A stretch of DNA of 63,933 nucleotides, counting the filler, from Chrysochromulina tobinii (taxonomy: Eukaryota), in NCBI GenBank assembly GCA_001275005.1. It is 6 parts of 6 records of this genome, joined end to end, with 100 filler letters (N's around TTAATTAATTAA, not from the genome) between each part and the next. Parts side by side here need not be neighbours in the genome. Positions count along the whole stretch, not along the records: positions 1 to 25,610 come from JWZX01000999.1; positions 25,711 to 31,008 come from JWZX01001003.1; positions 31,109 to 44,032 come from JWZX01001004.1; 3 more parts are not named here. The stretch is one strand, 5' to 3'. The notes under the pieces are model-generated. The model was not told the origin of the DNA and searched no databases. It saw only the letters and a program-made list of their open reading frames with translations. Position 1 is the first letter of the stretch. Every line of letters begins with the position of its first letter. Position numbers and translations under genes: made by a program. This document shows positions 4,677-39,800 of the stretch, one piece after another.

Positions 4677-7600
4677 CTACGCATCAACATCCACGCGTTG
4701 GTCAAGTAGAATTCGGCGCATGCCCGCAAGCGACGCCAAGCGGCCGCCAAACTGGCCCTTGACGGCCTCATCGACCCCGCGCACGAAGGCACGCAGCATT
4801 GGCTTGCACTCGGGTCGCCATGCGCACCGGCGCTCGACGAGGCGCCCGAGGCATGCCACGTCATCCAACCGACACGCCTGCACGAGCGCGCGAGCATAGG
4901 CAAGCAGCTCGGTGGGGTCGGGTGGGTTGATGGGGGCGGGGCGGGCGGCGGTTTCCATCACCTCCACTGCCACCACCGCCTCATCCTCTTCGTCCACCGC
5001 CGCCTCCGCCGCCTGCGTCGCCTGCGCCGCTTGCGCCACCGCCGCCTTCGCCGCCTTCGCCGCCTTCGCCGCCTTCGCCGCCTTCGCCGCCTTCGGTATC
5101 GGCGTCCCCCGCGCGTCCCCAACGGACGAATGCGGGCCACAGCCATGCCGCTCCAGCCACGCCCCAATATGAACGCGCATCTCGTCCCAAGGCTCAAGCA
5201 GCTGAGGCGCGGCGCCCGCGACGGCGCTTGACCGCGCGTCGACAGCCGGGGGGCGCGCCCGCGACGGCGCTCCCACCGCTGCCCCCCCCTCGTGCGGGTC
5301 ATTGCCCACGACGGCGCCGTGGGCGTGATCACGCACGGGCCAGTCTGCGGCCGGTGCGTGAGGCGATGGCCCCTTTCTCGAGCCTCCCCGCGCGCCGCCC
5401 GACACAGCGCCGCCCGATACAGCGCCGCCCGACACAGCGCCGCCCGCTGCGGCGCCGACCGCGGCGGTGGGTGGGGCAAGCGACCAGTATCGCTGCTCAA
5501 ACGGCGAGCGGCGCGGCGGCTCCGCCAGATTGCGCGAGATTGGGCGGCCGCGCGAGGCGACGCCCATATTAGGAATAGCAGCTGCCGGACGCGCCATCGG
5601 CGAGCGCTGCGGTGAGCGCGGTGGCGCCGTGATGGGCGCGATCGCAAGGTTGCGCTCGGTTTCGCAGAGGCTGCACGTGAGGAAATCGCGTTGCGCTGGG
5701 TCTACGTGCTCGTAGGTGCACACCTGTGGGGAAGAGGGAGGTGGCGCCGTGGTGAGCGCTTGCATGCCCCGGGGTCTACGTGCTCGTAGGTGCACACCTC
5801 GCATTTCCAGCCACGTGGAGAGGACGCGCCGTGGTGAGCATGCGATGCGCCGCTGTGAGCACATGTGCCGTACGCGGCACCGGCCCCTGTCCCATCAATG
5901 AACGAGGTCGCCGCCGCCGCCGCGGCCACTGCCGCCGCGGTGGCTTGGCGCTTCTGCCGCTGCCTTGCCAACTCGAGACGAAGCGCCTCACCTGATGAAG
6001 GAGACCATCAGAGGTCATCAGAGGCAATCAGAGGCAATCAGAGGCAAATCAGAGGCAAATCATCGCTCGAGACGAAGCGCCCCACCAGGGGCGCCCTCAA
6101 TCTCATCGATGGTCGCCTCGTCCACTTGCGAGCACGAGGGGAGGTGCCAATCTCCGGGGAGGTTCCAATCTCCGGTGGTGCGGAGCTCGCGATCTCCGGG
6201 ACGGAGCTCGTGATCTCCGGTGCGGAGCTCGAAGTCGCCCTCGAAGTCGGAGCCGCGCCCAACGGATGGCCGCACCTCTGATGACCCACTAATTACCCCT
6301 GATGACCCACTAATTACCCCTGATGGGCGCACCTCCGTACTCGTACTGCCGCCGCCGCCGCCGGTAGTGCACTGCCGTGACGCCGCCTGCTCCGGTGGAG
6401 CGGTCATCAGCGGTAATTAGTGGGTCATCAGCGGTAATTAGTGGGTCATCAGGGGTAATTAGTGGGTCATCAGGGGGTAATTCGTGGGTCATCAGGGGGT
6501 AATTACCTGCGCCGGTGGAGCGGCCGGCGGCGGCGCGACGGCCTTTCGTTTGCCATGAGCGAAACTATTGTGGGCCCCTGGCTGCGCAGAAGCGGGTGGC
6601 CATGCTGTTTCCTCACATGCATGTGAGGCCACCCGCGGCAGAGCTTCGGGCCAGGGGCTACTCGCCGCCTTGATCAACGCCTCAGCTGTGGCCCGTCCGA
6701 ATCGAACGCTCAGTGCCGAAACTCCGAGGCTCATTAAGTCCCCACAAGTCCGGAGACCCTCGGAAGTCAGCTGCAGGCATTCCTCGATCCGCAGAGCCGG
6801 CAGCAGGGCCATCACTGGCCGGCCCATGAGAAGCGCCTCCATGTCCGCAGATGAGCGGATCCATCGCACGCTACCCGAGGCTCCCGTCCGCACCGCCACA
6901 CTCGCAGCCAGGATGGCCGTCGTCACATCGGCGGCCACGCCCACGCCGACGGCCGTCAGTAACGGCTCTGCCGCCTCCGCCGCCGCCACCGCCGGCGATG
7001 CCGCGGCATCCGCCGCCGGCGTATCCGCCGCAAACTCAAGGTGCGACGACGAAACCCTAGTTGTGGAACCACGGAGACTCCCTAATATGGAACCGTGGAA
7101 GTTGCCTAATATGGAGCCATGGAGGCTGCCCAGAGCCTCTTCGGACACGTCTGTCGGCCGCAGCGGCTGCAGCAGCACCACTTGGTCCGCGAGGAGGGGA
7201 TAGGCCGATCTCGATGCATGCGGCCACTGCGCGCCGAGCGCTCCGACGAGCTTCTTCTTCATGGCATCCTCCACCGCCACCGTCGCAGACGTAGAGAGGT
7301 CGCCGAGGTCGGGCAGGGCTCGCACGCTGACGAACCATGCTGCCCCATTCGGCACGCTGAACAACGGTACTTCCATATTAGGCACGCTGCCGAACAATGC
7401 CGCCGGCGCAGCGGCCGCGTTGACAGCAGCGAGAGCATGGGCAGCGGCCAGGTGATCAACGTCATCAGCCATCACTTCGTCCACGTCCGCAACATCCATC
7501 TCCCATGCCGCCTCTGCTGCCACCTGTGCTGCCACCTGCGCTGGCGCTGGCGCTGGCGCGGCTGCCGCCTCCTCTCCTACTGCCTCCGCTGGCGGCTCGG

Positions 7601-8156
7601 CTGCCTCGGGCGCCGCCGCCGCCGCCGCCGTTGGTCGCACCCCAAACGCTGCTGGTCGCACCAGGAATCCGGCGAGGGTGCGTTGCTCAGGGTCCTGCAA
7701 CTCGGCCAGGGCGTAGTCGCACTCTGGCAGCCGGCGGCCCTGAGCGGCACTCTCGACGAGCCAGCTCTCGCGTACAGCGAAGATCTGCCGCCCCCTGCGC
7801 TTCGACTCGGCAATGTGCGCAGTGAGCGCCGCGATCTTGGCCGCGGGAAGATTGTTGACCAGCAGGTGCGTCACGACGGAGCCGTGCAGGTACTGCGAAT
7901 ACTGGCCGCCGTGCTGGATGACGAGGTCGCTCAGATCGAGCTGCCTGCTGCTCGAAACGCCATCGAGGTGCAGCACCACGCCACGTAGGCAGTCACTCTG
8001 CTTGGGCACGCTCCGTGCGTACTGGACCTCGAGCTTGCTCTCCTTGTCCCGCATGTAGTCACCATGGCTGGTCCAGCCGCCGCCGCCGCTGAAGCGACGA
8101 TCCTCTTTGTCCTTGCTCGGCGAGAAGCCGGGCACGCCACCTCGGCCTCCACTCAT
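4677..8156 (-). CDS. REV1: REV1-like protein (BRCT, degenerate Y-family polymerase, UBM-like, zinc finger, REV1 C-terminal domain); exons 8156-6507, 6386-6333, 6275-6086, 5991-5798, 5723-4677
   Basis: N-terminal GDYMRDKESKLEVQY before a BRCT domain (VTHLLV, ESWLVES, LPECDY); HhH-like GLRTCGDL; SQVDEAT UBM-like; WKCEVCTY..CSLC; C-terminal helical domain ending QFGGRL; splicing keeps the frame. Confidence 0.8.
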
Positions 8157-8269
8157 TCCTGTGGCCGAAAGTCCGCAACACCAGACGTGGGAAAAAGAAG
8201 TTTGTCAGAAACAGTTACAGGTACTTCGCGGCCACACCCGCGCCCACCACACTCCGTCTCAAAGAACAC

Positions 8270-8968
8270 TTAGAATTTCTCGGTCCATGGACGCAAATCT
8301 ATCTCCTGCGTCCAGCAGGTTTTGGGCTGCTCATGTAGTGCCCAATAGGCCTGAGCAATCGCCGCCGGGTCGAGCAACCCGCCCTTGGCTCGGAGCGCCT
8401 CGAAGGCGGTGTCGCCCACGATCTGCCGGACGAATGGTGTGTCGATCGGCCCGTCGATGATGACATGCGCCACGTGCACGCCGCTCGGACCGAGTTCGCG
8501 CGCGAGGCTCTGAGCCAGGGCGCGTTTGGCGTGCATTGCACCCGCAAAGGCACTAAAGTTTGCCGCGCCGCGCGTGGAAGCCGTAGCACCAGTGAAGATC
8601 AGAGTACCCTCGCCACGTGTAGCCATCCGTGGGCCGAGGGCCTTGGCGAAGTGGAATGCGCTGAGTGCGGCAAGCTCCCAGGTCTTGCGGTACACGCGCT
8701 CCGACGTATCAGCCACGCTGAAGCGCACGTTCGCGCCGATGTTGTGCACAGCGAGCTTCACGGGCCCGCTGCGCGCCTCGACACTGGCCACAAACTTTTC
8801 CACCTCATCTGCCTCTCGAAAGTCGACGGCCGTCATGGTGATGCCCGTTTCGGGCGTGCCTTCGGGAGGGCGCCGCCGCGCGCCATGGACGACCAGCCCG
8901 CGGCGTGCAAAGAGCCGGGCCAGTGCTAAGCCCGTCGACTCGCCGCAGCCCGCGATTATCGCCGACAT
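8270..8968 (-). CDS. short-chain dehydrogenase/reductase
   Basis: GCGESTG Rossmann motif, HNIGAN, IFTGATASTRG, AQSLARELGPSGVHVAHVIIDG, WTQEIDLRP. Confidence 0.92.
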   Translation of the reverse strand: MSAIIAGCGESTGLALARLFARRGLVVHGARRRPPEGTPETGITMTAVDFREADEVEKFVASVEARSGPVKLAVHNIGANVRFSVADTSERVYRKTWELAALSAFHFAKALGPRMATRGEGTLIFTGATASTRGAANFSAFAGAMHAKRALAQSLARELGPSGVHVAHVIIDGPIDTPFVRQIVGDTAFEALRAKGGLLDPAAIAQAYWALHEQPKTCWTQEIDLRPWTEKF

Positions 8969-9329
8969 TTTGCTGCCAGAGAAGTCCACAGGTGTGAATC
9001 GGCTGTTGCCTCCTAAATTGTGAATTATTTTGGACGGGCCCGGTGTCCTCGGTGTCGAATTTTTGTAACCCTTGACTGGTGTACTCTTCCAGGATTGAAT
9101 ATTGTCGGTAAACTATTTTTCGGTAAAGCGCGCTCAAATTCACTTCTCTTTTCTGCCAGGTGTGCGCGACCTGATCTCAGCTTCACTCACAAGCAATGCA
9201 TCGAGCAGGGGGCTGAGGGATGTGTCGAGCTAGCAAGCTGGGGCTGCAAGCTGGGTTGAGCCCTGGGACCTGGGAGCCTTACAATGGTGGCCAACCGCCT
9301 TGTCGTGCTCCCTTGCCACCCCCGATGAC

Positions 9330-10184
9330 CTACTGATGACCTGAGAGGGCGCGGCGCCTGCGCCGGCCCTTGCCATCCCACGGCAATCGTACCAGCGGCT
9401 CGTCGACCAGCAGCAAGCCACCCGTATACGGCAGTCGCCGGAGCCTCGGCCCGAAAATCGCTCCCGCCGCCGCTCCTCCTAAGACCCCCCCCAGATGGCC
9501 CAAGTTGTCAATGTTCGAGCCAGGGAAGAGGCCGAAGGCGGCATTGAGCGCGCAGACCTGGAGCATGGAGGTGAGTGAGTGGGAAACTTGGATGCCCGCG
9601 CTCTCGAAAAAGTCCTTATTGATCTGGAGGAAGGCCATGTGAGCGCCGAGTAAGCCAAAAATGGCGCCGCTTGCGCCGACGGCGACCGGTGACCGGCGCA
9701 TTGCAAAGGAGAGGCAGTTGCCGGCGACACCGGCAACCACGTACGCCGAGATGAAGCGCTTAGAACCATACCAGCGCTCCACCGTCGGTCCGAGGTTGTT
9801 GAGTGACATCGAATTGATGATGAGGTGTGGCACATCAGCATGTAGGCAGCACGCGGTGGCAAGCCGATGGATCTGGCCGCGCTGGATCATCGCGTCGCTC
9901 TTTGCCATCGCCGAATATAGCCCACGCGAAGGAAAGATTCGGTGGAATGCAGGGGCCGTGAGCACGAAAATGCCCGCGTTGAGGTACAGAAGTGCACGTG
10001 TCACCGGCGTGCGCGTTTGCTTGGCATATGGCCTTGATCCGGGCCTCGTGATGAGCTGATGTCGGCGTGCGGCAACTGGCAAACAAGTGGGCGGCTGACA
10101 AGTGGCAAACAAGTCGTGCGGATAGTTGCAGCCACGACTATCAGTGCTTGCGAGGGCCAGGATGGCCAGCAGAGGCACGGCCAT
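9330..10184 (-). CDS. rhomboid family intramembrane serine protease with N-terminal signal peptide
   Basis: LHADVPHLIIN, catalytic GASGAIFG and GHLGG motifs; start MAVPLLAILALA. Confidence 0.9.
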   Translation of the reverse strand: MAVPLLAILALASTDSRGCNYPHDLFATCQPPTCLPVAARRHQLITRPGSRPYAKQTRTPVTRALLYLNAGIFVLTAPAFHRIFPSRGLYSAMAKSDAMIQRGQIHRLATACCLHADVPHLIINSMSLNNLGPTVERWYGSKRFISAYVVAGVAGNCLSFAMRRSPVAVGASGAIFGLLGAHMAFLQINKDFFESAGIQVSHSLTSMLQVCALNAAFGLFPGSNIDNLGHLGGVLGGAAAGAIFGPRLRRLPYTGGLLLVDEPLVRLPWDGKGRRRRRALSGHQ

Positions 10185-10369
10185 CACGCCGGTCGCCGCA
10201 CAAGGGGGAAGCCTAAGTGGCCGTGAATGTGTGCAGTGAATGTGGGTTTCGAAACCATTGGCTGTGAGCGCGTATTCAGCCGCCAGGGCCAAGCCAAGTT
10301 GTGGACCAGCGAAGAAGAGAGGGGAAACTATGATGTGTGAAAGTGAAGCGGCAGACACGGTCGCGGTCA

Positions 10370-11392
10370 TCAACGCTTCACACCGAGCGCTGCGTCCACA
10401 GCGTCCTTGACTCCCTCGAGCACGCTGAACTGGAGTGCGCCGCTCACGAGAGCGCGCGCCACCTTGGGCGCCAGGCCTGCATAGAGGCCCCGCAGGCCCT
10501 CCTCGTCCGCAACTGCCTTGAGCGTCGCGAGCACGCCCGGCGCGGGCTGGTCGGCCGGCAGCGTCATGATGCGCGTGCGCGCCACGTCGAGCGGCGTCGA
10601 GACGCCCTGTGCGGCCATCGTAGCGAGCGCGCCGCCCACCGCAGCCTCCAGCGGGGAGAGCTTCGCGCCACCCTTGCTCCGCCGCCACGCATCCTTGATC
10701 GCACTGTAGAGCACAAACTTGCTCGAGTCCACAGGAAAGGCGTAGGCCACATTGCTGGCGTACCCGCGGTAGAAGCCGCCTGGCCCGATCTCGCGCCAGA
10801 GCGCCGTGGCGGCGGCGGCCGAGTCGCTCTCGCCGCCCGACTGTCGTCGCACCTTGATCACCTCCGCTGGGTTGCGCACGAGCCAATAGACGAGGTTGGC
10901 GCAGCCCACAGCGGCGACGGTGCCACCCGTATCGCCGAGCTGCGGCTTGAGCTGCTGCAGCACGGAATCCTTGATGGCGAAGAAGACAGACGCGGCTGGC
11001 GCACCCGAGACCACCGCCGGTGCAAGCCCTGAGTAGACGTCCTTGTACAGAGCCGGGTCGAGCAGTCCGCGACGTGTGGACGTCAGCTGCAGCCGCGTCT
11101 TGACCGTATCGAGCGGGTGTAACGTCACCTCCTTGATCGTCTTTTGCGCGAAGCCGGCAATGAGCCCAGACAGGAATTCAGTCGATGTGCTCGCATCTGT
11201 GGCGGCGGCGATCGGAGTCATCGTGTAGGCGACCGGCGGTGTGGTGGCACCGGCACGAGCGCCTCCGATAGCGACGGCGGCCGGCGCAAGGAGCACGCCG
11301 CTCACGGCCGAGCGCCGGGATATCTGCGTGCTGCGTAGGGCGTGCGATGCGGGCACGAACAATAGGAGGACACTTAAACTGAGCATCGACAT
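10370..11392 (-). CDS. mitochondrial carrier family protein (SAM-carrier-like), probable plastid targeting
   Basis: three PxD/ExxK/R motifs (PLDTVKTRLQ, PAEVIKVRRQ, PLDVARTRIM); signal peptide plus transit-like N-terminus. Confidence 0.9.
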   Translation of the reverse strand: MSMLSLSVLLLFVPASHALRSTQISRRSAVSGVLLAPAAVAIGGARAGATTPPVAYTMTPIAAATDASTSTEFLSGLIAGFAQKTIKEVTLHPLDTVKTRLQLTSTRRGLLDPALYKDVYSGLAPAVVSGAPAASVFFAIKDSVLQQLKPQLGDTGGTVAAVGCANLVYWLVRNPAEVIKVRRQSGGESDSAAAATALWREIGPGGFYRGYASNVAYAFPVDSSKFVLYSAIKDAWRRSKGGAKLSPLEAAVGGALATMAAQGVSTPLDVARTRIMTLPADQPAPGVLATLKAVADEEGLRGLYAGLAPKVARALVSGALQFSVLEGVKDAVDAALGVKR

Positions 11393-11469
11393 ATGTGGCG
11401 CCACTCAGCAGGCACCTAAACGAAACACAAGTTCTAAATCACACCCCACCAAGTTCACAACATCTAACC

Positions 11470-15883: not shown

Positions 15884-17340
15884 ATGATTGCGACGCTCAT
15901 CAACTGTGTAGCGGAGAAGGCCAGCGCCCACAGCAAAGAAGTCTTATCGGTCACATTTTCCCCGGACGGGACCAAGATTGTCTCTGGATCGTACGACGCG
16001 ACGATCAAAGTCTGGGATTCAGGTGCGCCGCGAGCTCTCAAAATCGCCCCTCCTCGGCCAAAACTAACGCCTGTTGGCTTGTCTGGCAGACAACCTGGAG
16101 ATGCTGCGCGAGAAGACGAACGCCCACCACCTACCAATCGCGTCGGTGGCGTTTTCCCCGGACGGGACCAAGATCGTGTCTGGATCAGTTGACGCGACGA
16201 TCAAAGTCTGGGATTCGAGTGTGCCGAAGCCCTCAAAATCGCCCCTCCTTGGCCAAAACTGACGCCTGCTGGCTTGTCTGACAGGCAAACTGGAGATGCT
16301 GAGCAAGAAGAAGTTTGCCCACAGCAGGGACATCAATTCGGTCGCGTTTTCCCCGGACGGGACCAAGATTGTGTCCGGATCGGACGACAAGACGATCAAA
16401 GTCTGGGATTCGGGTGCGCCGCGAGCTCAAAATCGCCCCTCCTCGGCCAAAACTAACGCTTGCTCGCTTGCCTGGCAGACAAGCTGGAGATGTTGAGCGA
16501 GAAGACCAACGCCCACAGCAAATTGGTCATGTCGGTGGCGTTTTCCCCGGACGGGACCAAGATTGTCTCTGGATCGTACGACGCGACGATCAAAGTCTGG
16601 GATTCGGGTGCGCCGCGAGCTCAAAATCGCCCCTCCTCGGCCAAAACTGACGCCTGCTGGCTTGTCTGGCAGACGCGCTGGGGCTGCTGAGCGAGAAGAC
16701 CAACGCCCACAGCAAATTGGTCATGTCGGTGGCGTTTTCCCCAGACGGGACCAAGATTGTCTCTGGATCGAACGACGCGACGATCAAAGTCTGGGATTCG
16801 GGTGCGCCGGAGCCCTCAACAATCGTCCCTCCTCGGCCAAAACTGACGCCTGCTGGCTTGCCTTGCAGACAAACTGGAGCAGTTGAGCAAGAAAACGAAC
16901 GCCCACAGCGACGCCATCACATCGGTCGCGTTTTCCCCGGACGGGACCAAGATTGTGTCCGGATCGGGCGACGCGACGATCAAAGTTTGGGATTCGGGTG
17001 CGCCGCGAGCTCAAAATCGCCCCTCCTCGGCCAAAACTGACGCCTGCTGGCTTCTCTGGCAGGCAACCTGGAGCTGCTGAGCGAGAAGATCAACGCGCAC
17101 AGCGACTGGATCAACTCGGTGGCGTTTTCGCCTGATGGGACCAAGATCGTCTCGGGATCAAAAGACAAGACGATCAAAGTCTGGGATATCGTCAACTGGT
17201 CTCGCAAAGATCACTTAATGTTCAACGTTACTACCCAGCAATTTGTCTTGTTGGTGCTGTGGCTGAACAAATACAGCATGAAGTTTCCTGATGATGTGCT
17301 TGATCTGCTTATCGAGGCTTGCCTGCGCAAAGCCGGGTGA
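15884..17340 (+). CDS. seven-repeat WD40 protein, one repeat per exon; exons 15884-16022, 16090-16218, 16285-16413, 16479-16607, 16673-16801, 16869-16997, 17063-17340
   Basis: [31 protein letters not shown] seven times; 129-nt phase-1 internal exons separated by near-identical 65-67 nt GT-AG introns; an acceptor at 15881-15882 suggests an upstream exon. Confidence 0.9.
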
Positions 17341-25710: not shown

Positions 25711-28700
25711 AGGGCGGCGGCGGCAGGCGCGGCGGCGAGGGCGGCGGCGGGGGCGGCGAGTGCAGGTCCAGAAGCACCACCGTCAGCCTGTCGGCACGAG
25801 ACGCCGCCACGTAAGCGTAGGAGCCGCTCACGGCGACGGCATGAGCCTGTGTGTGCACAGCACGTGAGGGCGAGCGAGTGAGAGCGCGGAGGACATCAGC
25901 GGCGGCCGCGCCGCGGGTGCAAGCATGATGGACAAAGCTAAGGGCCACACGTACCCCATCCAGAAAGGACGAGGAGACCACGCTGCCACGGATGACTGGA
26001 GACGCAGGGTTGCTAATGTCGACTACCACCAGCGAGTTGGAATTCCACGCCGCCACGTAAGCGTAGGAGCCGCTCACGGCGACGGCTATAGCCTGTGTGC
26101 ACAGCACGTGAGAGCGAGCGAGTGAGAGCGCGAGAGGGCATCGGCAGCGGACGCACCGCGGGTGCGAGCATGATGGACGGGTGCGGACGCAAGCGCGACG
26201 AGCCTGCGCCCGAGTTCAATCACGGTCGCAGCTCCGCGTCGCACGCACCTGTTCAAGAAGAGACGATGAGACCACGCTGCCCCGGATGACTGGTGACGCA
26301 GGGTTGCTAATGTCGATCACCACCAGCGAGTTGGGATACTGCCCCGTCACGTAAGCGTACGAGCCGCTCACGGCGACGAAAGTCGCCTGTGCACACAGCA
26401 CGTGACAGCGCGCGCGCGAAAGCACGAGAGGGCATCAGCGGGCGTGGCGCCGCGGGCGCGAGCACGATGGGCGGGGCGGACGCATGGCGCGGCGCCTGAG
26501 GCCATCCGCGGTCGCAGAATTGGGTCGCGCGCACCCCATAAAGAAGAGACGACGAAACCACGCTGCCCCGAATGACCGGAGACGCAGGGTTGCTAATGTC
26601 GACCACCACCAGCGAGTAGGAAGTATGCCCCGCCACGTAAGCGTACGAGCCGCTCACGGCGACGTGCATAGCCTGTGCGCACAGCACGTGACAGCGCGCG
26701 CGTGGAAGCACGAGAGGGCATCAGCAGGCGGTGGCGCCGCGGGTGTGAGCACGATGGGCGGTGCCGACAAAAGTGCGGCGCCCGACGCCATCCGCGCCGC
26801 AGCTCCGCGCTTCACGTACATCCAGAAGAGACGATGAGACCACGCTGCCACGGATGACTGGAGACGCAGGGTTGCTTATGTCGACCACCACCAGCGAGTC
26901 GGAATTGAGCGCCGCCACGTAAGCGTAGGAGCCGCTCACGGCAACGCCAGCAGCCTGTGTGCACAGCACGTAACAGAGAGCGAGTGAGAGCGCGTGAGGG
27001 CATCAGCAGGCGGTGGCGCCGCGGGTGTGAGCACAACGGGCGGGGCGGACGCATGCAGCGGCGCCCGACGCCATCCGCGCGTGCAAAGCACCAGGCCGCA
27101 CACGCACCCCATCCAAAAGAGACAACGAGACCACGCTGCCGCGGATGACTGGAGACGCAGGGTTGCTAATGTCGACCACCACCAGCGAGTCGGATAGAAA
27201 CGCCGCCACGTAGGCGTACGAGCCGCTCACGGCGACGCCATAAGCCTGCGTGCACAGCACGTGCGCGGGAGCGAGAGAGAGTGCGGCAGGGCGAGAGGGC
27301 GGGAGGGCGGGAGGGCATCAGCGGCGGAGGCGCCGCGGGGGCGAGCATGATGCACGGGGCGGACGCAAGCGCGACGAGGCGCAGCGCGGTGCCCAAGTCA
27401 GCCGCGGTCGCAGAATAGGGTCGTGCGCACCCCATTAAGAAGAGACGACGACACCACACTGCCCCGGATAAATGGAGATGCAGGGTTGCTAATTTCAACC
27501 ACCGTCAGCGAGTAGGAATAACGCCCCGCCACGTAAGCGTACGAGCCGCTCACGGCGACGGCTATAGGCTGCGTGCACAGCACGTGACTCGCGAGCGCGA
27601 GAGGGCATGAGGGGCCGTGCAGGTGGGCGAGCAAGCTCGAGGGGCGTGGGAGCGCGGCGCGGCGTCCGAGGTCAATGCTCAGGGTCGAGTCGCACGCACG
27701 TAATCCAAAACGGACGCCGAGGTGACGTTGCCCACGATCGACCCGGAGCCCACGATGAGATCCAGAAGCACCACCGCCAGCGAGTCGGACCCAAGCGCCG
27801 CCACGTAAGCGTACGAGCCGCTCACAGCGACGCCATAAGCCTGTGAGCACAGCACGTGAGGGCGAGCGAGTGCGCGCGAGAGGGCTTCAGCTGGCGGTGG
27901 CGCCGCGGACGCGAGCGAGATGGACGCAGCTCCAGGCTACACGCACCCTATCCAAAAGAGAAGACGAGACCACGCTGCCCCGGATGACTGGAGACGCAGG
28001 GTTGCTAATGTCGACCACCACCAGCGAGTTGGAATACTGCCCCGTCACGCAGGCGTACGAGCCGCTCATGGCGACGCCAGCCGCCTGTGAGTAAGGGCGA
28101 GCGAGGGAGCGCGAGAGGGAATCAGCAGGCGGTGGCGCCGCGGACGTGCGAGCACGATGGGCGGCGCGGACGCATGCCCCGGCGCGTGCAAAGCTCCAGG
28201 CCGCACGCACATAGTTCATAAGAGACGACGATGCCACACTGCCACGGATGACTGGAGACGCAGGGTTGCTCACGTCGACCACCACCAGCGAGTTGGATAG
28301 AGCTGCTGCCACGTAAGCGTACGAGCCGCTCACGGCAACGCCAGCCGCCTGTGCGCACAAAACGTGCGAGCGAGCAAGTGAGCGCTCAAAGGGGGCATCA
28401 ACGGCGGTGGCGCCGCGGGTGCGAGCACGATGGGCGGAGCGGACGCAAGCGCGGCGCCCGAGGCCATCCGCGCGTGCACCAGGCGGCACACGCACCCCAT
28501 CCATAAGAGAAGACGAGACCACGCTGCCCCGGATGACTGGAGACGCAGGGTTGCTAACGTCGACCACCACCAGCGAGTCGGAATATATCGCCGGCACGTA
28601 AGCGTACGAGCCGCTCACGGCGACGGCTAGAGCCTGTGTGCACAGCACATGAGAGCGAGTGAGAGTGCGAGAGCTTCAGCGGCGGTGGCGCCGCGGGTGC

Positions 28701-29913
28701 GAGCGTGATGGACGGGGCGGACGCAAGCGCGGCGCGCCCGACGCCATCCTCGCGCGCAAAGCTCCAGGCCGCACACGCACCCCATTCAGAAGAGACGACG
28801 AGACCACGCTGCCCCGAATGACTGGAGACGCAGGGTTGCTAATGTCGACCACCACCAGCGAGGCGGAAGCATGCGCCGCCACGTAAGCGTAGGAGCCGCT
28901 CAGGGCGACGCCAGCAGCCTGTGTGCACAGCACGTAACAGAGAGCGAGTGAGAGCGCGAGAGAGCATCAGCAGGCGGTGGCGCCGCGGCGGGCGCGAGCA
29001 CGATGGGCGGGGCGGACGCATGCCACGGCGCCCGAGGTCATCCGCGCGCGCGAAGCACCAGGCCGCACACGCACCCAATCCAGAAGAGACGATGAGACCA
29101 CGCTGCCACGGATGACTGGAGACGCAGGGTTGCTAATGTCGATCACCACCAGCGAGTCGGAGTATTCACCCACCACGTAAGCGTAGGAGCCGCTCACGGC
29201 AACGGAACGAGCCTGTAGCACATGAGAGCGCGAGAGGGCTTGAGCAGGTGGTGGCGCTGCGAGGTCCTAACGAGCATGATGGGCGATCATGATGACGAGC
29301 ATGATGGGCGATGCGGACGCAAGCGCGGCGCGCCCGACGCCATCCGCGCGCGCAAAGCTCCAGGCCGCACACGCACATGGTCCAGAAGAGATGACGACAC
29401 CACGCTGCCACGGATGACTGGAGACGCAGGGTTGCTAATATCGACCACCACCAGCGAGTCGGACCCCTGCGCCGTCACGTAAGCGTACGGGCCGCTCACG
29501 GCGACGCCATGCGCCTGTTTGCACAGCACGTGAGAGCAAGCGCGCGAGCGAGTTTGGGAGGGCATGAGGGGCCAGGCAGGTGGGCGAGCATGCTGAAGGG
29601 GTGGGAGCCCGACGAGACGAAAGCGCGCGGGCTCGAGGTCTGCACGCACGTAATCCATTAGGGACGAATTGAAAACGCTGCCCACGATCGACCCGGAGCC
29701 CACGATGGTTGTGGAGTGCGCGAGCTGCCGCCCATCATGCTGGCTGCTCGGGAGGGCTCGTCCGAGCTCCGTCGAAGGCGGTCGCGGGCTGAATCCGCCG
29801 TCATCGGGCGCAGGCGGGAGCGGCGGAGGCGGCACTACGGTCAAGAGCGGCGGCACAGGCGAATGTGCCGAGGCCGTCACGGCGACGATCCCGTGCAGTA
29901 GTCCTCGAGCCAT
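25711..29913 (-). CDS. secreted/surface LVIVD-repeat protein, 14 repeat exons (2x7) plus proline-rich stalk; 3' end lost in gap
   Basis: AxxVAVSGSYAYVxxxxSxSLVVVDISNPASPVIRGSVVSSSLLD in ~138-nt phase-0 exons (e.g. 26092-25955) with related introns; hydrophobic N-terminus; SPPPPPP tail. Confidence 0.88.
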
Positions 29914-31008: not shown

Positions 31009-31108
31009 NNNNNNNNNNNNNNNNNNNNNNNNNNNNNNNNNNNNNNNNNNNNTTAATTAATTAANNNNNNNNNNNNNNNNNNNNNNNNNNNNNNNNNNNN
31101 NNNNNNNN
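31009..31108. other. artificial contig linker
   Basis: 100 nt N spacer with TTAATTAATTAA. Confidence 0.95.
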
Positions 31109-32624
31109 TGGTGCTTGTTCGAGCTCGTCAAGGCGCTCGCCAAGGGCGCGACGCTGCACGTGGTGCTCGCGCCCGCGGACGTGGACGGCTTCGCGGAGCT
31201 GCTGACGTATGAATTTGACGAGATTGCGGGCATCGTGGCGGGCATGCCATCGACGCGGCCGACGCGCAGATCACAATAGTCGAGGACCGCGACTACATCC
31301 TGGCCGAGGTGGCGCAGCTCGAGGGCGGCATCGGCGCGGTGACGGCGACGGTGTGCGCGTCGCTGCGCGAGTGGCTCGCGGCCGAGGGCCGCGCGGCGCT
31401 GGCGCGCATGCCGCGCGAGGAGCGGGCGACGTCGGCGCTGCAGAACCAGCTGGGGAGGCTGCTGCAGGCTCAGGGCAAGCTCGACGAGGCGGGCGTGCTG
31501 CTCCGCGAGGCGCTCGAGGCGAGGCGTGCGACGCTCGGCGATCGTCATCCGAGCACCCTTGTCTCGATGAATAATCTGGGGACACTGCTGCACGCCCAGG
31601 GCAAGCTCGACGAGGCGGGCGTGCTGTACCGCGAGGCGCTCGAGGCGAGGCGTGTGACGCTCGGCGATCGGCATCCTAGCACCCTTAGCTCGATTAGTAA
31701 TCTGGGGGGGCTGCTGTATGACCAGGGCAAGCTCGACGAGGCGGGCGGGCTGTACCGCGAGGCGCTCGAGGCGAGGCGTGTGACGCTCGGGCGATCGGGC
31801 ATCCGGGGCACCCTCACCTCAATTAATAATCTGGGGGAGCTGCTGCAGGACCAGGGCAAGCTCGACGAGGCGGGCGTGCTGCTCCGCGAGGCGCTCGAGG
31901 CGAGGCGTGCGACGATCGGCGATCGGCATCCGGGCACCCTCCGCTCGATAAATAATCTGGGGTTGCTGCTGCAGGACCAGGGCAAGCTCGACGAGGCGGG
32001 CGTGCTGCTCCGCGAGGCGCTCGAGGCGAGGCGTGCGACGCTCGGCGATCGGCATCCGGGCACCCTCCGCTCGATAAATAATCTGGGGACGCTGCTGCAG
32101 GACCAGGGCAAGCTCGACGAGGCGGGCGTGCTGTACCGCGAGGCGCTCGAGGCGAGGCGTGCGACGCTCGGCGATCGGCATCCGGACACCCTCGGCTCGA
32201 TTCATAACCTCGGGCGGCTCCTGCACGACCAGGGCCGGCTGGGCGAGGCCGAGACCTTGCTCCTCGAAGCACACGACGGCTGCGCCGCGACGCTCGCAGA
32301 GGGCCAGCGCACCCGGCTGCGCTCGCAAGCCGGGCTCGCAGACGTGCGACGCGCGCAAGGCCGCATCGAGAGCGCCCGCGCGCTCGTGGATGCACGCGTG
32401 CTCATCACGGCGCGTGCGGCGCTGGGCCCGACGGTGGACACGACGCTGCTGCTCGAGGCCGTCCACGCCCGGCTCGAGTGCGCGGCAGGCGGAGGGCTCA
32501 GCCCGCTGAAAGCGGCCCTCGAACGCATGTGAGGACCGTCCTCGGGCCGGAGCACCCTGAGACGCACCGCTGCGCAGAGGCGCTCTCGCAGGAGGAAGAG
32601 GCCGCCAGGTCCCACAGCGTATAG
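31109..32624 (+). CDS. kinesin-light-chain-type TPR repeat protein with N-terminal WCLFE (TIR/HET-like) segment; partial, with apparent frameshifts
   Basis: about seven 42-aa repeats (QGKLDEAGVLxREALEARRATLGDRHPxTLxSINNLG); WCLFEL at the contig start; frame breaks near 31245 and 32530. Confidence 0.8.
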
Positions 32625-33087
32625 GCACTTCCTGACGAGATGGACCCGGCGTGACATGCGGCGTTGAGCACGGGCTGATCGGGATGATGAGGGTCTCTCA
32701 GTCACTGGCGGAGGGTACAGTTTCACCGTACCATGCGATGGGCCCCGGCGCTCGGCGGGCTAAGGCGGACCGCCGTGCCGCGTGCGCCGGTACGGTAACC
32801 AAACAGCCGAACCGCTGGCGTGCGCGTAACCTATACCGCATTTCTAAGCTCGCGCTACACATTTTCACATTTACTCGTACGCGGTCCTAGTGAAGTTGTA
32901 CTACACCACCGTTCAGTAACGCAAGAACCTATAAAGTCGCTCCACCGCCGCAGTCTTCAGATCTCCCCGTGAGATCTCCCGCCCGAGCGTACCGAGAAGA
33001 GCCACCTTTGACTAACCTCCTGTGATCGAACCATCATCGTCCGGCGGCCCGCTCGAGGCTGCCACCTGCACCTCTCTCATCGTCGAG

Positions 33088-36000
33088 CTACGTACTTGAC
33101 GCCTGGCCGGCGTAATTGGGCACGACGTAGAGCCGCTCCCGAGCCAGCTGACGCTCCTCTGGTGAGAGGACGCGCTGTGGCCGCTCCTGCACCCAGCGGC
33201 GCGCCGATGTGGCCCAGGTACGCCGGCGCGCCGACTGCACCTGCCGACGTGCCGACTCGCTCAAGTAGCCAGGGCCAGAGGCTTGGGCGCGGTCGACGAG
33301 CGTCGTGCCGATCGCTCGGGTCGTCGGTGCATCTGGAGACACGAAACGGCCGCTTACCGGCCGGACCGATCGGCCCGAGACGAAACCGCCGTAGCCCACG
33401 TACATCTCGCCACCGCCCGAGACGGCGCCGCCCGGGACGGCGCCCAGAGCATAGTCGGGCTCGTCCGCGTAACTGCCGATCGCGTACCTGAGGAGAGAGG
33501 CAATCAGTGTCAGCAGTGGTAATCGGAGGTCATCAAGAGGCCATCAGGGCTCATCGCGTACCGTGAGCGCGCATCGAGAGGCCAGCCGTCCTTATCCAAA
33601 GCGGCCGACGGGCCGTGAGCGCTCGAGACGGCGCCCCGACCGCGCGCCGGGTCGGTTACGGGTCCCCCCACCGAGGACCTACCGGCCGACGACCAGCCCG
33701 ATACGGCGCTATCGACCGATACGGCGCTGCACCCGCCGCCGGAGTGGCCTCCACCGCTCGAGACGGCGCCTCCACCGCTGCGGCCGTACCGACGACGACG
33801 CATCCCCTCCACCTGATGAGGGAGGCAATCACCTGATGAGTGACTCACTTGATGAGGGATGTCATTCGAAGCGACGCATCTCCTCCACCTAATGAGGGAT
33901 GTCATTCGAAGCGACGCATCTCCTCCACCACCTCCTGCTCATCCGTCATCATCCGTCATCATCCGTCATCAGAGGTCATCAGAGGTCATCAGAGGTCATC
34001 AGAGGTCATCAGAGGCCATCAATCCACCTCCTCCTGCTCATCCGTCATCAGAGTTAATCAGAGGTCATCAGAGGTCATCAAAGGTCATCAATCCACCTCC
34101 TCCTGCTCATCCGTCATCGGCTGCGCCTCGTCCGCAGGCCTCTGCTTGCCGCCCGGCACGGCGCCCGGGCTGCTGCTGCTGCTGCCGCCGCCACCGCCCT
34201 CGCCGACGCCCGACACGGCGCTCGAGATAGCGCCCGAAACGGCGCCGCTGCTGCCGAATCCAAACCAGCTGCCGCCGCCGCCCGGCACGGCGCTTGACGA
34301 ATCTCGAGGGGGGCGGGTTGAGGCGGGAGAGGGCGAGAGCGCGCGAGATGTGATCTCGGCGAACGCCTGCCGAGAGAGGAGATGACCATGAGAGGAGATG
34401 TAATCAGAGGCACTCGGAGGCACTCAGAGGGCACTCGGAGGCACTCTAAGAGGCAATCAAGAGGCAATTAACGAGACTCGCCTGCCGAGAGGAGAAGACG
34501 GCCGAGTAGGCGCTGCCGAGTAACCGCCCGCGCCGCGAGGCCGCGTCACGTGCGTCGGCGCGGCGCTGCTCTTCGGCGGAGGGCGGGTAGGCGGGCTTGG
34601 GCGGCGGCGGGGAGGGGGGGCGAGCGGAGGGGCGCGCCGAAGGGCGCGGGATCGACCCGGCGTACCTGTGGGGAACGAGGTGGGGTGAGGCGGCGCCGTG
34701 GTGAGCGCTTGCATGCGCGGGCGGCCAGCCGGGCGGCGCAGGATCGGTCCTGTGCGTGCCTGTTGGTCGTCGACAGAGGCGGTCGGCCACTCGCCGCGTC
34801 GCCCGTCGTCGCGGCGGCCGTGCGCCCTACAAGGTATTTGGCTTGGTCGAGCGATCCGAATCTCGCCGTCCATCCTGTCGACGGCTGGTACGGTGGGATC
34901 TGGCCTGGCGACGCCGCGTGCTGCGGGTGGCGCGCCGAACCGCGCCGTGCCGAGCGCGCCGAAACGCGCCGTGCTGAGCGCGCCGTACCGCGCCGTGCCG
35001 AGCGCGCGCCGGGCGCCTCGTCGCCGCTGCTGCTGCTGGCCGCCGGCGGGCTCGCGTCGTGTTGGGCGCTTCCCGCGGGCTGCCGTTTGGAGAAGAAGCC
35101 CCAGCCGTTACCTTTTCGGACGTGCGGCTCGGCCGCGCCCGGGACGGCGCCTGTACCGCCGAGCGTGCGGAATTCCGCCTGAAGCTGCGCAAGGGTCTGA
35201 GCCGGATGGTCCACAGTCGGCTTGCGCACACCCTCCTTCACACCCTCCTTCACACCCTCCTTCACACCCTCCTTCACACCCTCATTCACACCCTCATTCA
35301 CACCCTCCTTGGCTCTTGGAGCCTCGGCTCGCTCGGCCGTGCCCGCCGCAGCGCGCTCGGTTTTGGCCGCGCGCTGCTTCATCGCGGTCCGTGCACGCAC
35401 CTGATGAGGGAGGCAATCAGACGTCCTTCGATAGATGAGGGAGGCAATCAGACGCCATCAGGGGCGCTGATGCTCGCACCTTGGGAATCAGACGCAATCA
35501 GACGCACTCAGACGCAATCGGATGCAATCAGACGCAATCAGACGCAATCAGACGCACCTCAGCGGCTGCGAGTGCAGCGCGTGCCTCGGCCACGGCCCGC
35601 AAGGCAGCGTCGGCGTCGGCGTCGACGTCCTCAGGGGCGGCAGGGGATCCTGACTCGGCGTCCGTCGGCGCGGCCAAAGTTGCCTTACCCGCACGCTGCT
35701 GTGCGGGCCGCTGCTTCCCTGCTGCTGCTGCTGCTGCTGCTGCGGCTGCTGCGGCTGCTGCTTCCAGTACGTCGGTGACGCTCGCGTGCCCGCGCCGGCT
35801 GGCCCACGCCGCTGCGTCGAGCCCCCACTCATCGGCCAAGTCCGTACGAGCGCCACTGCTGAGCAGCAGCTGGGCGATCTCCGCATGACCTCCCATGGCC
35901 GCGAGGATCAGCGGTGTGCGGCCGTCGGCGTTGGCGGCGTCGACGGAGGCGCCGCGGCGGAGGAGCGTCTCGACCGCACGCACCTCGCCCTGGAGGACGG

Positions 36001-36220
36001 CATAGTGCAGCACCGTCGCGCCCATCAGATTGACCATGAGCTCGAGCTCCATGTTGGGCGCCATGCTGGACTGGCAGCAGCGGTACGACAAGCGGCACCA
36101 CGCGAGCATCCACGCCGACGGAAAGGAGATCATGCCCTCGCGATACACGAGCTCGTCGATGCGTGCCGGGTAGATGCTCGACACTCGCTCGAGCTTGATC
36201 AAGCCGCGCAGGCCCGCCAT
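33088..36220 (-). CDS. ankyrin-repeat protein with long low-complexity tail; introns 35401-35557, 34666-34759, 34367-34481, 33813-34096, 33488-33561
   Basis: GATVLHYAV, GRTPLILAA and GLDAAAWA ankyrin repeats; predicted introns (two with GC donors) join the ORFs in frame. Confidence 0.75.
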
Positions 36221-36616
36221 TTGCTGCCGCGTGCGCGTCGGCGATGGACTGGTGTTGGAGCGGACCAAAAAAGGCGTTTCGTGTGTAGGACAAGTTCCAA
36301 GTTCCACATAAGTTTGCTCTCAAACTTTCGCGCGATTTGACTCGAGAGGTCGTTTCTCTCGGGAGGTTCACGGTGGGACAAAACGACAGCACACGCGGTC
36401 ATGACACTCGGTGTGCGCGCGCCGGGGGCGGGTCCGCGGTTGGCGGTACCGCGGACGGCGGAGCCGCGCTGTGCTCTCCGCTCGTCTGTGTGTGTCTCGG
36501 GGTTTCTGTCTCTTCACCTGGGTGTGCTTTTCCGCAGTCTCCAACGTTCGCGCACAAGAATATATACATCTCGCGTGCAGGTCTGATCTCGAGGCGCATC
36601 TCGCGTGCAGATCCGA

Positions 36617-37600
36617 TCACAGCCCAAAGGCGCGCTGGATCTTGAGCCGGAACACTGTGGGGATCTCGGCGGGCAGAGCATTCGACTGGGCCAGCAGGAA
36701 GACGTCGTCGACGCACCTGATGAGCGAGGCAATCAAACGTCTTCCGATAGATGAGGGAGGCAATCAGACGCCATCAGACGCCAGCAGGAAGACGTCGTCG
36801 ACGCACCGGCATCCATACGCGAGGACCTGCAGCGACGCAATCAGACGCAAGCAGACGCAAGCAGACGCAATCAGACGTACCGGCATCCATCCGACGAGAG
36901 GAACTGCAGCGCGGCGTACGCGTCGGTGGCGGAGAGCCCGGCGGCTTGCTGCAGCCACCCAGCGACCGCGTCGAGCTCCGGTCCAGCCTGGGCGGGTGCG
37001 GGGGGCGCCGAGTCGCGCGTACGCCCCAAGGCGCGCTGTGCCGGGCCCCTCTGCACCGCCTTTGGAGGGAAGGTGAAGCACGAGATCTGAGGCTGGTACG
37101 AGGACTTGGAGTCGCGAAAGGTCTGCGAGAGGGCGGGATTGGGGCTGCTGAGGGAGGGGCAGGGGCTCGGAGGACGGACGCCGCGCCAGTCACGGGGGAA
37201 TGCGCACCTCCACATCGTGGTCATAGTAGACGGGCTTCGTCGCCGCAGCTTGGTAGGCGATCGGCGGCACCCACTCGACGGGTGGAGGCGGCACCGGCTG
37301 CTGCTGCTGCTTATACAGCGGCGGCTGCCGTTTGATTGCCTGTGGGCCCGACCACACATTGAGCTCCGTCTGATGCGTCGACTTGCGGTCCCGGAAGCTC
37401 TATGGCGCGAAAGCGAGTCGACCGCGAGCCGTGAGCCTTTCGGTGGGTGGCGCGAGGCGTTCGTGTGCTGTGCGCCTTGTGCGCGCACACCTCGTGGTCG
37501 TGGTCGTAGTACACCGGCACGGGTGCTGCCGCGCGCATGCCGGGCACCTGCGGCATCGGCCTGGCAAGCGCCGGAGCGACAGCCACAATGAAGGCAAGCA
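36617..37600 (-). CDS. hypothetical protein with SAM-like C-terminus; intron 36717-36880; 5' structure uncertain
   Basis: VAGWLQQAAGL..GCR|CVDDVFLL..IPTVFRLKIQRAF after splicing. Confidence 0.4.
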
Positions 37601-37922
37601 TTTTTCGAAGATTCCCGATTGGAAGTCCGCAACGCGTCGTTATGAGTTTTGAGGCTGCAGGCTCCGAAATTAACGCTCGGCTGACTCTGTCGAAGGCAAG
37701 TGTGTGGAGCATCCTCTTCGCCAAAATGACTGCTGACACCACGCACCCGCGCCTCGGAACGGAAAGATCTTTCTTACTGCACAACTGCAGGTGCCCACGC
37801 AAATGAAACAAATGAAAAGCCTCAACGGAACGGAAAGATCTTTCTTACTGCAGGTGCCCACGCAAGGCCAACTGAGCAGTAAAGTGGGGGAATCTAGCAA
37901 ATGAAACAAATGAAAATGCTTT

Positions 37923-39800
37923 TCATGAACGGTTCGCCTGCTTGAGCCGCACACGGCTCAGAAGGCTGCCCAGGCACGCTTGCATCGCCTCACACAAGGC
38001 CGCCAGCGGAGCCTCGCCATGAGTCACGCCGCTGCTCTGCGGCTGCTTGGCTGCGCTCAAGAGGGAAGGAGCATACTCGCCCGTACCTGTGGGGAGCGAG
38101 GCGCCGTGGTGAGCGCTTGCTTGCACTCAAGAGGGAAGGAGCATACTCGCCCGTACCGGTCGCATACTGCCACGCGTTGAAGGCCGAGTTGGCCGCCCGG
38201 TACTTGAGCTTCTGGAGCGCCTCGGAGAGCAGCCGTACCATCTTTTGACGCTGCCACGTGTACTCCTCCCATGAGTGGAAGCCTCCGGCGAGCTTGCGAT
38301 GCAGCATGTGGCCCATGCTAGCCTGCAGCAGTTGCATGTGCCTGGCGCGGCTCTCGGCGAACAAGAGCCACGAGTTCCACCCCTTGGCCAGTTGCTGCTG
38401 GGGCAGTCGCTTCAGCGCCTGGCGGCCGATTTCGTCGATTCGCTCCGCACGCTCCTTGCGTGCGCGGCTGCTGTCGCTCATCTCGCCCTCGGGGCTGCTC
38501 GGGGGAGATTCAATCTCGGTTTGGGCGAGATCGCACGGCGTGCCGGGCTCGGCGGTGCCTTCGAGCGCGGCGTACTGCTGGCGCACGACCCTCGCCTTCG
38601 TGGCAGCCTTTGCGCGGCATCGCTTCATGCTCGTAATCAGGGCATCGCGCTCGTGCCGTAGCTCATCGCCCTTCTTCTGCATCGCTTTGAGAGCTACACT
38701 GCATTCCTTGGCGTCGAGCCTGCCGCTGCCGTCCGCGTCGATCACGTGAAAGAGCTCAGCGGCCTGCATGTGCGCGGAGGAGTCGAGTAACAGCCCACTG
38801 ACCATATTTAGAAAGTCGCCCTCGGTGAGCCCTTCCGAGCTGCTCGCAAACTGGCCCACAAAGTCCGCCGCCTTGATGCGCCGGCGCGTGCAAGCGATGC
38901 CGAGCTGCACCTCCAGATCCGCCTCCATCTCGCGCTTCTGTTTCGTGAGCTCCGCCTCCCGCCGATCGGCCTCCTCTTCAAACCTGATGAGCGAGGCAAT
39001 CAGACGCCTTTCGATAGATGAGCGAGGCAATCAGACGCAATCAGACGCGATCGGCCTCCTCTTCAAACCTCTCTCCTTCGGCCGCGTGGATGGCGAGCTC
39101 GCGTAGCTTGGTGGCTTTGACGGCGAGCCTCGCGCGCACCTGTGGGGAGAGGGGAGGGCGCCGTGGTGAGCACTTGCATGCATAGCTTGGTGGCTTTGAC
39201 GGCGAGCCTCGCGCGCACCTCAGCCTTGGACAGGTTGATCGCGCAGCCGACTGCCTTCAAGTCGACTAGGATCGTCTTGAGCTCGATCGAGCTCAGCATG
39301 CCCGACTTGCCCTTGTCGTACGTGTCGAAGAACGCGTCAATCTCCTTGGTCTCGAGATCGAACGGCTCCTGCGGCCGATACTTGGCGAAGAGCGCTTTGA
39401 TCCGCATCCGAAACTCGGTCTTCAGCACGCTGCCGCTGTTTGTTGGGTCCCACGCCCGGAGCTGTGCCGGCACATCGACATTCGCTTCAGCCAGAAGCTC
39501 CCGCAGCCTCTCCGCCGCCCCCTGCTTGTGAGGCTTCTTGTCGCCCTCCAGCGCTTCGGCCTCGGCTATGAGCTGGCTCGAAGTCAGCCTCGTGAACTCC
39601 GTGAGTGCAGGCGCAGCCTTGCACACGTTCTGGAGCCCGGCGAACGTGCCTCGGATGGCAACCGCAGCTGGTGGAGAGTAGAGGCCCAAGGGGGCTTCAC
39701 CTTGCGGCCAGAAAGAGCGCAGCCTGGAAGATTTGATAAAGAAGCGCGAGGTCTGGCGCGGCGTCCAGATGTGGGGGGCGGCTGCAGTCGGCGACGGCAT
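37923..39800 (-). CDS. EF-hand/coiled-coil protein; introns 39140-39218, 38984-39068, 38087-38156
   Basis: EF-hand loops DPTNSGSVLKTE, DKGKSGMLSSIE and DADGSGRLDAKE; intron removal restores one frame. Confidence 0.82.
38984..39068 (-). mobile_element. candidate intron-generating insertion, family A (type example)
   Basis: perfect 23-nt direct repeats (38963-38985, 39048-39070) flank CTGAT-repeat filler ending CTGATTGCCTCGCTCATCAG; related ends occur in more than 10 introns. Confidence 0.65.
39140..39218 (-). mobile_element. candidate intron-generating insertion, family B (type example)
   Basis: perfect 38-nt direct repeats (39104-39141, 39183-39220) flank a 41-nt GCATGCAAGTGCTCACCACGGCGCC..CCCCAC module that recurs at 5724, 34666 and 38087. 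Confidence 0.65.

What the first reader, a model, noticed from the sequence alone, without database searches (positions are those of the whole stretch)
5724..39218. Family B introns: a shared ~40-nt module flanked by long, variable exon duplications that donate the 5' splice site
Seen: four minus-strand introns in three unrelated genes (5724-5797, 34666-34759, 38087-38156, 39140-39218) start with a copy of the first bases of the downstream exon. The copies are perfect at 28, 32 and 38 nt and decayed with a GC donor at 34759. Each intron ends in GCA(T/A)GCAAG(C/T)GCTCACCACGGCGCC..CCCCACAG, and removing it restores the frame exactly. Known: described algal introners are TIR DNA elements with short fixed TSDs that supply one splice site. 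Inference: long variable duplications at G|GT sites with no TIRs point to a different, recent intron-gain mechanism (target-primed/retro-like insertion or staggered-break repair) in which the module supplies the 3' splice site.
Basis: partly seen in the sequence, partly recalled or inferred. Interest (0 to 1): 0.9.

Follow-up and report, generated by a model that had tools for sequence, protein, structure and literature searches.

The report
Introns that copy themselves into duplications
In a freshwater haptophyte alga, many recently gained introns consist of an 18-46-base duplication of the gene's own exon plus a short piece copied from another intron, often a nearby one; this likely reflects repair of staggered DNA breaks templated on existing introns, a route to mass intron gain that I did not find described and that standard intron-transposon screens would miss.

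Summary
Three introns carry perfect 28, 32 and 38 nt exon duplications and the fourth a decayed one. The 24-nt core occurs in 139 metagenome loci from a truncated scan. Of 115 acceptor-bearing copies, 77 have a junction-anchored duplication, against 4 of 1500 controls. Removal restores frame in 35 of 37 testable cases. One homologous intron elsewhere in the genome is spliced in 4 of 4 RNA runs; the window's own four gave no RNA joint. Precise empty alleles exist, also for the introns at 38087 and 39140. The host is Chrysochromulina parva-like. The module is not a bounded transposon: it has no inverted repeats or hairpin, both ends vary, unrelated decamer-repeat introns have the same footprint, mirror forms exist, and copies often derive from a same-strand neighbour within about 2 kb. 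Best reading, inferred: a staggered break primes on an existing intron, copies part of it and duplicates the target; selection keeps units of about 65 nt or more that splice cleanly. Enzyme and RNA-versus-DNA template are unresolved.

The parts
5724..5797 (-). Family B intron, 74 nt; 28-nt perfect duplication (copies 5772-5799 and 5698-5725); module about 5724-5771
   Evidence: removal joins a four-Cys zinc-finger-like motif
34666..34759 (-). Family B intron, 94 nt, GC donor, decayed duplication of about 34 nt
38087..38156 (-). Family B intron, 70 nt; 32-nt perfect duplication (38126-38157 and 38056-38087); present in some relatives, absent in others
   Evidence: proteins P0167, P0172, P0189 read into the module, P0176, P0180, P0182 lack it
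39140..39218 (-). Family B intron, 79 nt; 38-nt perfect duplication (39183-39220 and 39104-39141); empty alleles exist
   Evidence: P0177-P0179, P0181 read through this site and then into the neighbouring family A intron
38984..39068 (-). Family A (decamer-repeat) intron, 85 nt, with a 23-nt perfect exon duplication: same footprint, different insert
   Evidence: present in P0177-P0182, absent in P0167, P0176, P0183, P0186
36717..36806 (-). Family A intron, 90 nt, with a 28-nt perfect duplication; its insert is closest to the ones at 38984 and near 35400 (local chain)
5972..6081 (-). Family A intron with 16-nt exact (21-nt near-exact) duplication in the zinc-finger gene
37923..39953 (-). 3' part of the EF-hand host gene holding three duplication-flanked introns
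5825..5865 (-). Two degenerate core-like copies lying in frame in the exon upstream of the 5724 intron; possibly a dead or exonised insertion
   Evidence: not tested further

Best explanation
These are spliced, recently gained introns made of a duplicated stretch of exon plus a fragment copied from an existing intron, and they likely arise when a staggered DNA break is repaired by priming on another intron. Inferred steps: nicks about 20-45 nt apart leave 3' overhangs; one end anneals through a few bases of microhomology to an existing intron, often a same-strand neighbour within about 2 kb; it copies about 25-70 nt including the branch region; the ends rejoin and fill-in duplicates the target. 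Insertions in coding exons would survive only if duplication plus insert reach the minimum intron size (about 65 nt) and place GT/GC and AG in register. Each survivor can then serve as template, so the shared 'module' would be the part that every viable copy must keep, not a transposon with defined ends. Whether the template is unspliced pre-mRNA (reverse transcription) or DNA is not resolved; I lean slightly to RNA.
For: Shown: junction-anchored duplications in 77 of 115 acceptor-bearing copies versus 4 of 1500 swapped controls; donors GT 67, GC 6, other 4. Near-perfect duplications in the 61 class I cases are 18-46 nt, median 28, with 18 the detection floor; duplication plus insert is never under 65 nt in the 75 spliceable cases but goes down to 40 nt in the 41 without a splice frame. 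Empty and filled alleles: L012/L046 versus L091 (34-nt duplication, 47-nt insert) and L053 versus L123 (about 33-nt duplication, 9-nt insert). The L091 insert matches its neighbour 524 nt downstream including 5' flank and tail, with short microhomology at both junctions. Same-locus pairs share 8 or more nt of 5' flank in 12 of 248 versus 70 of 24,476 between loci. In 12 of 85 inserts the best match among all fetched sequence is local, always on the same strand. Unrelated inserts share the footprint. No TIR or stable hairpin. Weak hint for RNA: in the 5 pairs I could polarise by eye (L091, L017, L016, L048, L069) the daughter lies upstream of the parent.
Against: No enzyme was identified and no whole genome was held, so an autonomous element cannot be excluded. 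73 of 85 inserts had no better local than distant match, so local copying is a minority on this sample. The core starts rather sharply at one hexamer and is highly conserved, as a recognition site would be, although my query selected for it. 11 of 90 copies lie opposite to nearby family A introns, which a same-gene RNA template does not explain. L075 and L033 may have the parent upstream. L017 is a whole-intron copy with no long duplication. Empty alleles inferred from database proteins could partly be assembler collapse of repeat-flanked loops or precise loss.
Confidence: 0.55

Rival explanations
1. The modules are extremely short non-autonomous retroelements copied by target-primed reverse transcription using a LINE or Penelope-like enzyme whose second nick falls 20-45 nt downstream.
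For: Variable long TSDs and variable 5' ends; an insert reduced to the last 9 nt (L123); mostly sense orientation, 79 of 90. Chlamydomonas Dualen LINEs give very long TSDs and Chlamys PLEs give short 5'-truncated insertions (PMC9977147, passages). A Pavlovales introner family has a weak Chlamys hit (PMC12130899 supplement).
Against: No poly(A) or fixed 3' end: class II copies end in or just after the core. No tRNA-like head. Several unrelated inserts share the footprint, and copying from neighbours including their private flanks fits any-intron templates better than one element RNA. This rival merges with the best explanation if an RT merely acts in trans on pre-mRNA.
Confidence: 0.24
2. A Replitron-like HUH transposase copies the core by rolling-circle-type transfer, with fuzzy ends taken from the parent flank and variable TSDs.
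For: Replitron-1 has variable TSDs and fuzzy ends derived from the parent's flank, and one putative Replitron locus is reported in C. tobinii (PMC10288648, section 9 and passages). Fuzzy parent-derived flanks are seen here, as are tandem copies.
Against: The module has no terminal direct repeats and no stable hairpin; it is about 45 nt against 910 nt for Replitron-N1; both ends vary; unrelated families share the footprint.
Confidence: 0.09
3. Plain tandem duplications of exon create the introns, and the shared core is a splicing signal later brought in or homogenised by gene conversion.
For: 8 cases take both splice sites from the duplication; whole introns also duplicate in tandem (L028 versus L057, L043); tandem duplication is an accepted route (PMC3443670, passages).
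Against: Youngest cases have perfect duplication and complete module together, and empty alleles lack both at once. The pyrimidine tail does not resemble the upstream exon in the window's three perfect cases.
Confidence: 0.08
4. The segments are assembly artefacts or retained coding insertions.
For: No RNA joint was obtained for the window's own four introns; no long reads were seen.
Against: Identical filled loci recur in independent assemblies; many duplications are diverged; lengths show no 3n excess (20 of 77); 27 of 29 non-3n cases favour splicing and 1 retention; an 88-nt copy is skipped in 4 of 4 RNA runs.
Confidence: 0.02

Closest known systems
Introners of Symbiodinium and Polarella glacialis classes 4/5/6/8/10 (10.1101/2020.10.14.339549; 10.1101/2022.06.06.494994)
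   Same: Multi-copy introns at unrelated sites; element gives the 3' site, TSD gives the 5' site
   Different: TSD fixed at 4 or 8 nt, defined ends, TIRs in Symbiodinium. Here 18-46 nt variable duplications forming a third to a half of the intron, no TIRs, no fixed ends, local templating.
Daphnia pulex neo-introns from staggered double-strand-break repair (PMC4202315)
   Same: Direct repeat of adjacent exon at the far end of the intron; polymorphic gains; repeated internal duplications
   Different: Repeats 4-12 bp and inserts AT-rich and mostly of unknown source. Here repeats are several-fold longer and inserts are GC-rich copies of other introns forming families.
Intron gain by tandem genomic duplication of AGGT-containing exon (reviewed in PMC3443670)
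   Same: Donor, and in 8 cases both sites, come from duplicated exon
   Different: A foreign intron-derived insert supplies the branch region and usually the acceptor.
Replitron-1/N1 of Chlamydomonas reinhardtii (PMC10288648)
   Same: Copy-and-paste, variable TSD, fuzzy end carried from the parent's flank
   Different: Replitrons are 0.9-3.6 kb with terminal direct repeats and a Rep transposase, and are under-represented in coding sequence and introns.
Emiliania huxleyi introner fam24 (PMC12130899, Dataset sd07)
   Same: Haptophyte, about 70 nt, 'co-opt 5', carry 3'', annotated with 10-bp terminal direct repeats
   Different: 5 copies, unclassified; sequence not seen, so relationship untested. 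The same survey lists 0 families for C. tobinii.

Membership tests
TIR/MITE-type introner | Many sequence-similar introns at unrelated genes | tested here: met
TIR/MITE-type introner | One splice site carried, the other co-opted from the TSD | tested here: met
TIR/MITE-type introner | Terminal inverted repeats | tested here: not met
   2-5 of 12 terminal bases pair in the four window introns
TIR/MITE-type introner | Short fixed-length TSD and fixed element ends | tested here: not met
   18-46 nt duplications, variable ends
TIR/MITE-type introner | Autonomous transposase partner | not testable with these tools
   no genome held
Non-LTR/PLE non-autonomous retroelement | Variable-length TSD | tested here: met
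Non-LTR/PLE non-autonomous retroelement | Fixed 3' end with poly(A) or simple-repeat tail and 5' truncation | tested here: inconclusive
   class I share the acceptor end and vary 5'; class II and no-tail copies vary 3'; no poly(A)
Non-LTR/PLE non-autonomous retroelement | tRNA/7SL/5S-derived head or ribozyme | tested here: not met
   only Rfam hit in the window is an unrelated tRNA at 43342-43427
Non-LTR/PLE non-autonomous retroelement | RT-encoding partner with the same end | not testable with these tools
   no genome held
Replitron | Fuzzy end from parent flank plus variable TSD (Replitron-1 type) | tested here: met
Replitron | Terminal direct repeats and subterminal hairpin | tested here: not met
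   folding z-scores -0.4 to 0.8; no repeat seen at module ends
Replitron | Rep HUH transposase acting on these ends | not testable with these tools
   no genome held
Daphnia-type staggered-break intron gain | Direct repeat of adjacent exon flanking a filler, with precise empty alleles | tested here: met
Daphnia-type staggered-break intron gain | 4-12 bp repeats and unique AT-rich filler | tested here: not met
AGGT tandem-duplication intron gain | Both splice sites from the duplicated exon, no foreign insert | tested here: not met
   8 of 75 spliceable cases use both sites from the duplication, and all carry an insert

The most novel reading that the evidence does not exclude
A transposase-free intron epidemic: unspliced pre-mRNA at the site of transcription templates repair of staggered breaks, so any intron can seed new introns upstream in its own gene or in neighbours, and the same process seeds the 10-11-nt tandem repeats that fill haptophyte introns.
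Probability: 0.3. Interest if true: 0.93.

Novelty: new variant of a known kind. Interest (0 to 1): 0.82.

Why it matters
How new spliceosomal introns arise at scale is a long-standing question, now attributed mostly to transposons. Here large numbers of introns appear to be made by a hybrid of target duplication and copying from existing introns, still polymorphic within one culturable alga with public genomes, so the mechanism can be tested directly. Because the 5' third to half of each intron is unique exon copy, screens that need end-to-end intron similarity would miss them; the largest survey lists zero introner families for C. tobinii. The process may therefore be overlooked in other lineages. 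It also misleads gene models: the C. parva model reads into a module.

Tried and rejected
No genome was held for the window and the metagenome records could not be opened by handle, so genome-wide counts and a search for an autonomous partner were not done. Laying three RNA runs and one DNA run on 33800-41900 gave no joint for the family B introns; tables were swamped by repeats and cover was 2-3 fold, so this is neither support nor refutation. The viral collection gave one host-like hit. A representative-protein search with the exon after the 5724 intron gave one weak 21-residue hit. I looked for 10-nt periodicity in duplication lengths and saw none by eye. The idea that the pyrimidine tail is decayed upstream exon failed for the window's perfect cases. 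Many 'no-tail' copies turned out to be tandem duplicates of flank plus core inside one intron, not separate insertions. No hairpin, TIR or Rfam family. Nine literature searches found no description of this footprint; the library lacks most subscription papers, two supplementary files of PMC12130899 were not searched, and the PMC9860276 supplement is cut and was seen only in part.
Full report
Observation. The four minus-strand segments are as described. Exact repeats between intron start and downstream exon are 28, 32 and 38 nt for 5724-5797, 38087-38156 and 39140-39218. The 34666-34759 intron has a GC donor and a decayed copy that is significant only when anchored at the junctions (score 28; 0 of 400 random positions; below the 99% null unanchored). 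The core is far above chance in the window. Two of the introns lie in one EF-hand gene; the others lie in a zinc-finger-like gene and a third gene.

Host. Window GC is 63.0%; C. tobin is reported at 63.4% (PMC4580454, passages). A module-bearing locus, L078, matches a protein labelled Chrysochromulina parva (Chrpa1) at 97-100% in cleanly aligned exons. RNA runs X14 and X18 cover both L078 and window exons with no or few differences. The host is therefore C. parva-like; this is inferred, not read from the window's own record.

Family. Of 151 occurrences with enough flank (of 160, window included), 105 have a flanking repeat above the 99% null; this count includes tandem duplicates. Of 156 de-duplicated occurrences, 115 have a pyrimidine tail and YAG; 96 of these are followed by GT and 9 by GC. 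77 of 115 have a junction-anchored duplication against 4 of 1500 swapped controls. Intron lengths are mostly 67-95 nt, with 20 of 77 a multiple of three.

Splicing. With a codon model from window genes, frames on both sides agree after removal in 35 of 37 cases where both frames could be called; among non-3n introns 27 of 29 fit splicing and 1 retention. Junctions fall inside conserved bromodomain, ABC and DnaJ domains. On L078, an EttA-type ABC gene, an 88-nt family B intron with a 17-nt duplication is skipped at GT-AG in 4 of 4 RNA runs with 99 or more bases on each side; two more module-bearing introns are skipped in 3 of 4 and 2 of 4 runs. Intron-less bacterial and other haptophyte homologues are collinear with the spliced product. 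The window's own four introns gave no RNA joint.

Empty sites. L012/L046 have one copy of a 34-nt target where L091 has two copies around a 47-nt module; L053 lacks a duplication of about 33 nt plus 9-nt insert found in L123. For the window's EF-hand gene, database proteins called as single ORFs show different combinations: P0177-P0179 and P0181 read through the 39140 site and then into the family A intron; P0180 and P0182 start in the family A intron and lack the 38087 insert; P0167 and P0172 have only the 38087 insert; P0176, on contigs up to 12.4 kb and starting in an upstream unspliced intron, lacks all three; all 15 listed members of a 26-member cluster at about 78% identity lack the inserts at the sites they cover. 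I saw proteins, not their DNA, so assembler collapse, precise loss or mRNA origin cannot be excluded for each; the mixed combinations argue for real polymorphism.

Not a bounded element. There are no TIRs, no stable hairpin and no Rfam match. An unbiased catalogue of long repeats in 315 kb (loci plus window) gave 283 entries, with family A decamer inserts and other inserts showing the same footprint. After dropping tandem, diverged and long entries, 116 remained: 61 with the junction at the start of the duplication, 6 at its end (insert gives the donor), 8 inside it, and 41 with no splice frame, some mis-bounded by decay. All 75 spliceable units are 65 nt or longer.

Local templates. Same-locus pairs are more alike than between-locus pairs and share 8 or more nt of 5' flank in 12 of 248 versus 70 of 24,476. 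In 12 of 85 inserts the best match is local and on the same strand, including a chain of three family A introns in the window 1.2 and 2.2 kb apart. In FtsH locus L017 a whole intron, still bearing its parent's exon copy, sits 1.2 kb upstream of the parent without a long duplication. In five pairs polarised by eye the daughter is upstream; L075 and L033 may go the other way. 79 of 90 copies match the orientation of nearby family A introns, 11 do not.

Mechanism. Shown: insertion with long variable target duplication, splicing, polymorphism, variable ends, several insert families, partial local templating. Inferred: a 3'-staggered break, microhomology priming on an existing intron, fill-in duplication, and selection for length and register. 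I put this at 0.55, a dedicated retroelement at 0.24, a Replitron-like element at 0.09, duplication plus later conversion at 0.08 and artefact at 0.02. The template may be RNA or DNA.

Literature. Gozashti 2022 (preprint passages; supplement rows) requires intron similarity to reach both ends and shows 4-bp TSD families in marine Chrysochromulina MAGs. Gozashti 2025 (parts 1-2 of 7; supplement rows) lists 0 families for C. tobinii and a 5-copy E. huxleyi family with 10-bp terminal direct repeats. Dinoflagellate classes have 3-8 nt TSDs (passages). Daphnia exon-intron repeats are 4-12 bp (passages). Replitron-1 has variable TSDs and fuzzy ends (section 9 part 1 and passages). Chlamydomonas LINE and PLE signatures were seen as passages, the mechanisms review as passages. 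That E. huxleyi introns are rich in 10-11-bp repeats is recalled and was not found in the library; the RanBP2-type reading of the zinc finger is also recalled. An earlier AI note on another piece of this genome reached a similar view; it is not independent support.

Verdict. Real, recent and genome-wide; it works like an introner but fails membership of every defined class tested. New variant of a known kind, interest 0.82.

Noticed in passing
window 5825-5865 (-): Two degenerate copies of the core sit in frame in the exon upstream of the 5724 intron; the second is followed by a pyrimidine tract lacking the acceptor A, perhaps an exonised dead intron.
   Followed up: no
window 25776-29603 (-): About 13 tandem units of about 290 nt, each a repeated exon plus a related intron with a faint resemblance to the core; probably paralogous repeat-domain introns.
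   Followed up: no
window 15926-17206 and 31219-32529: Tandem exon-intron units of about 195 nt, and 126-nt TPR repeats.
   Followed up: partly
window 59088-59310 and 63697-63933: 15-nt tandem repeat arrays, one running to the window end.
   Followed up: no
window 60672-61895 (+): ORF with an NAD:arginine ADP-ribosyltransferase domain.
   Followed up: no
window 43342-43427 (+): tRNA gene.
   Followed up: no
L078 1-3118 (-): EttA-type gene with at least nine introns in 3 kb, from both families, several with nested duplications; RNA confirms most joints.
   Followed up: yes
L043 2098-2450, L028 1501-1618, L024 48-141: Whole introns duplicated in tandem two to five times, presumably by unequal exchange between the flanking duplications.
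   Followed up: partly
L053 1178-1573 and L123: Core inserted opposite to a gene that looks like a PolA-family polymerase C-terminus (recalled motif), with a second 9-nt insert polymorphic between strains.
   Followed up: partly
window 38173, 38686-38722, 38823-38872: A DNA run shows clustered alternative alleles in the EF-hand gene, consistent with divergent haplotypes or paralogues.
   Followed up: partly
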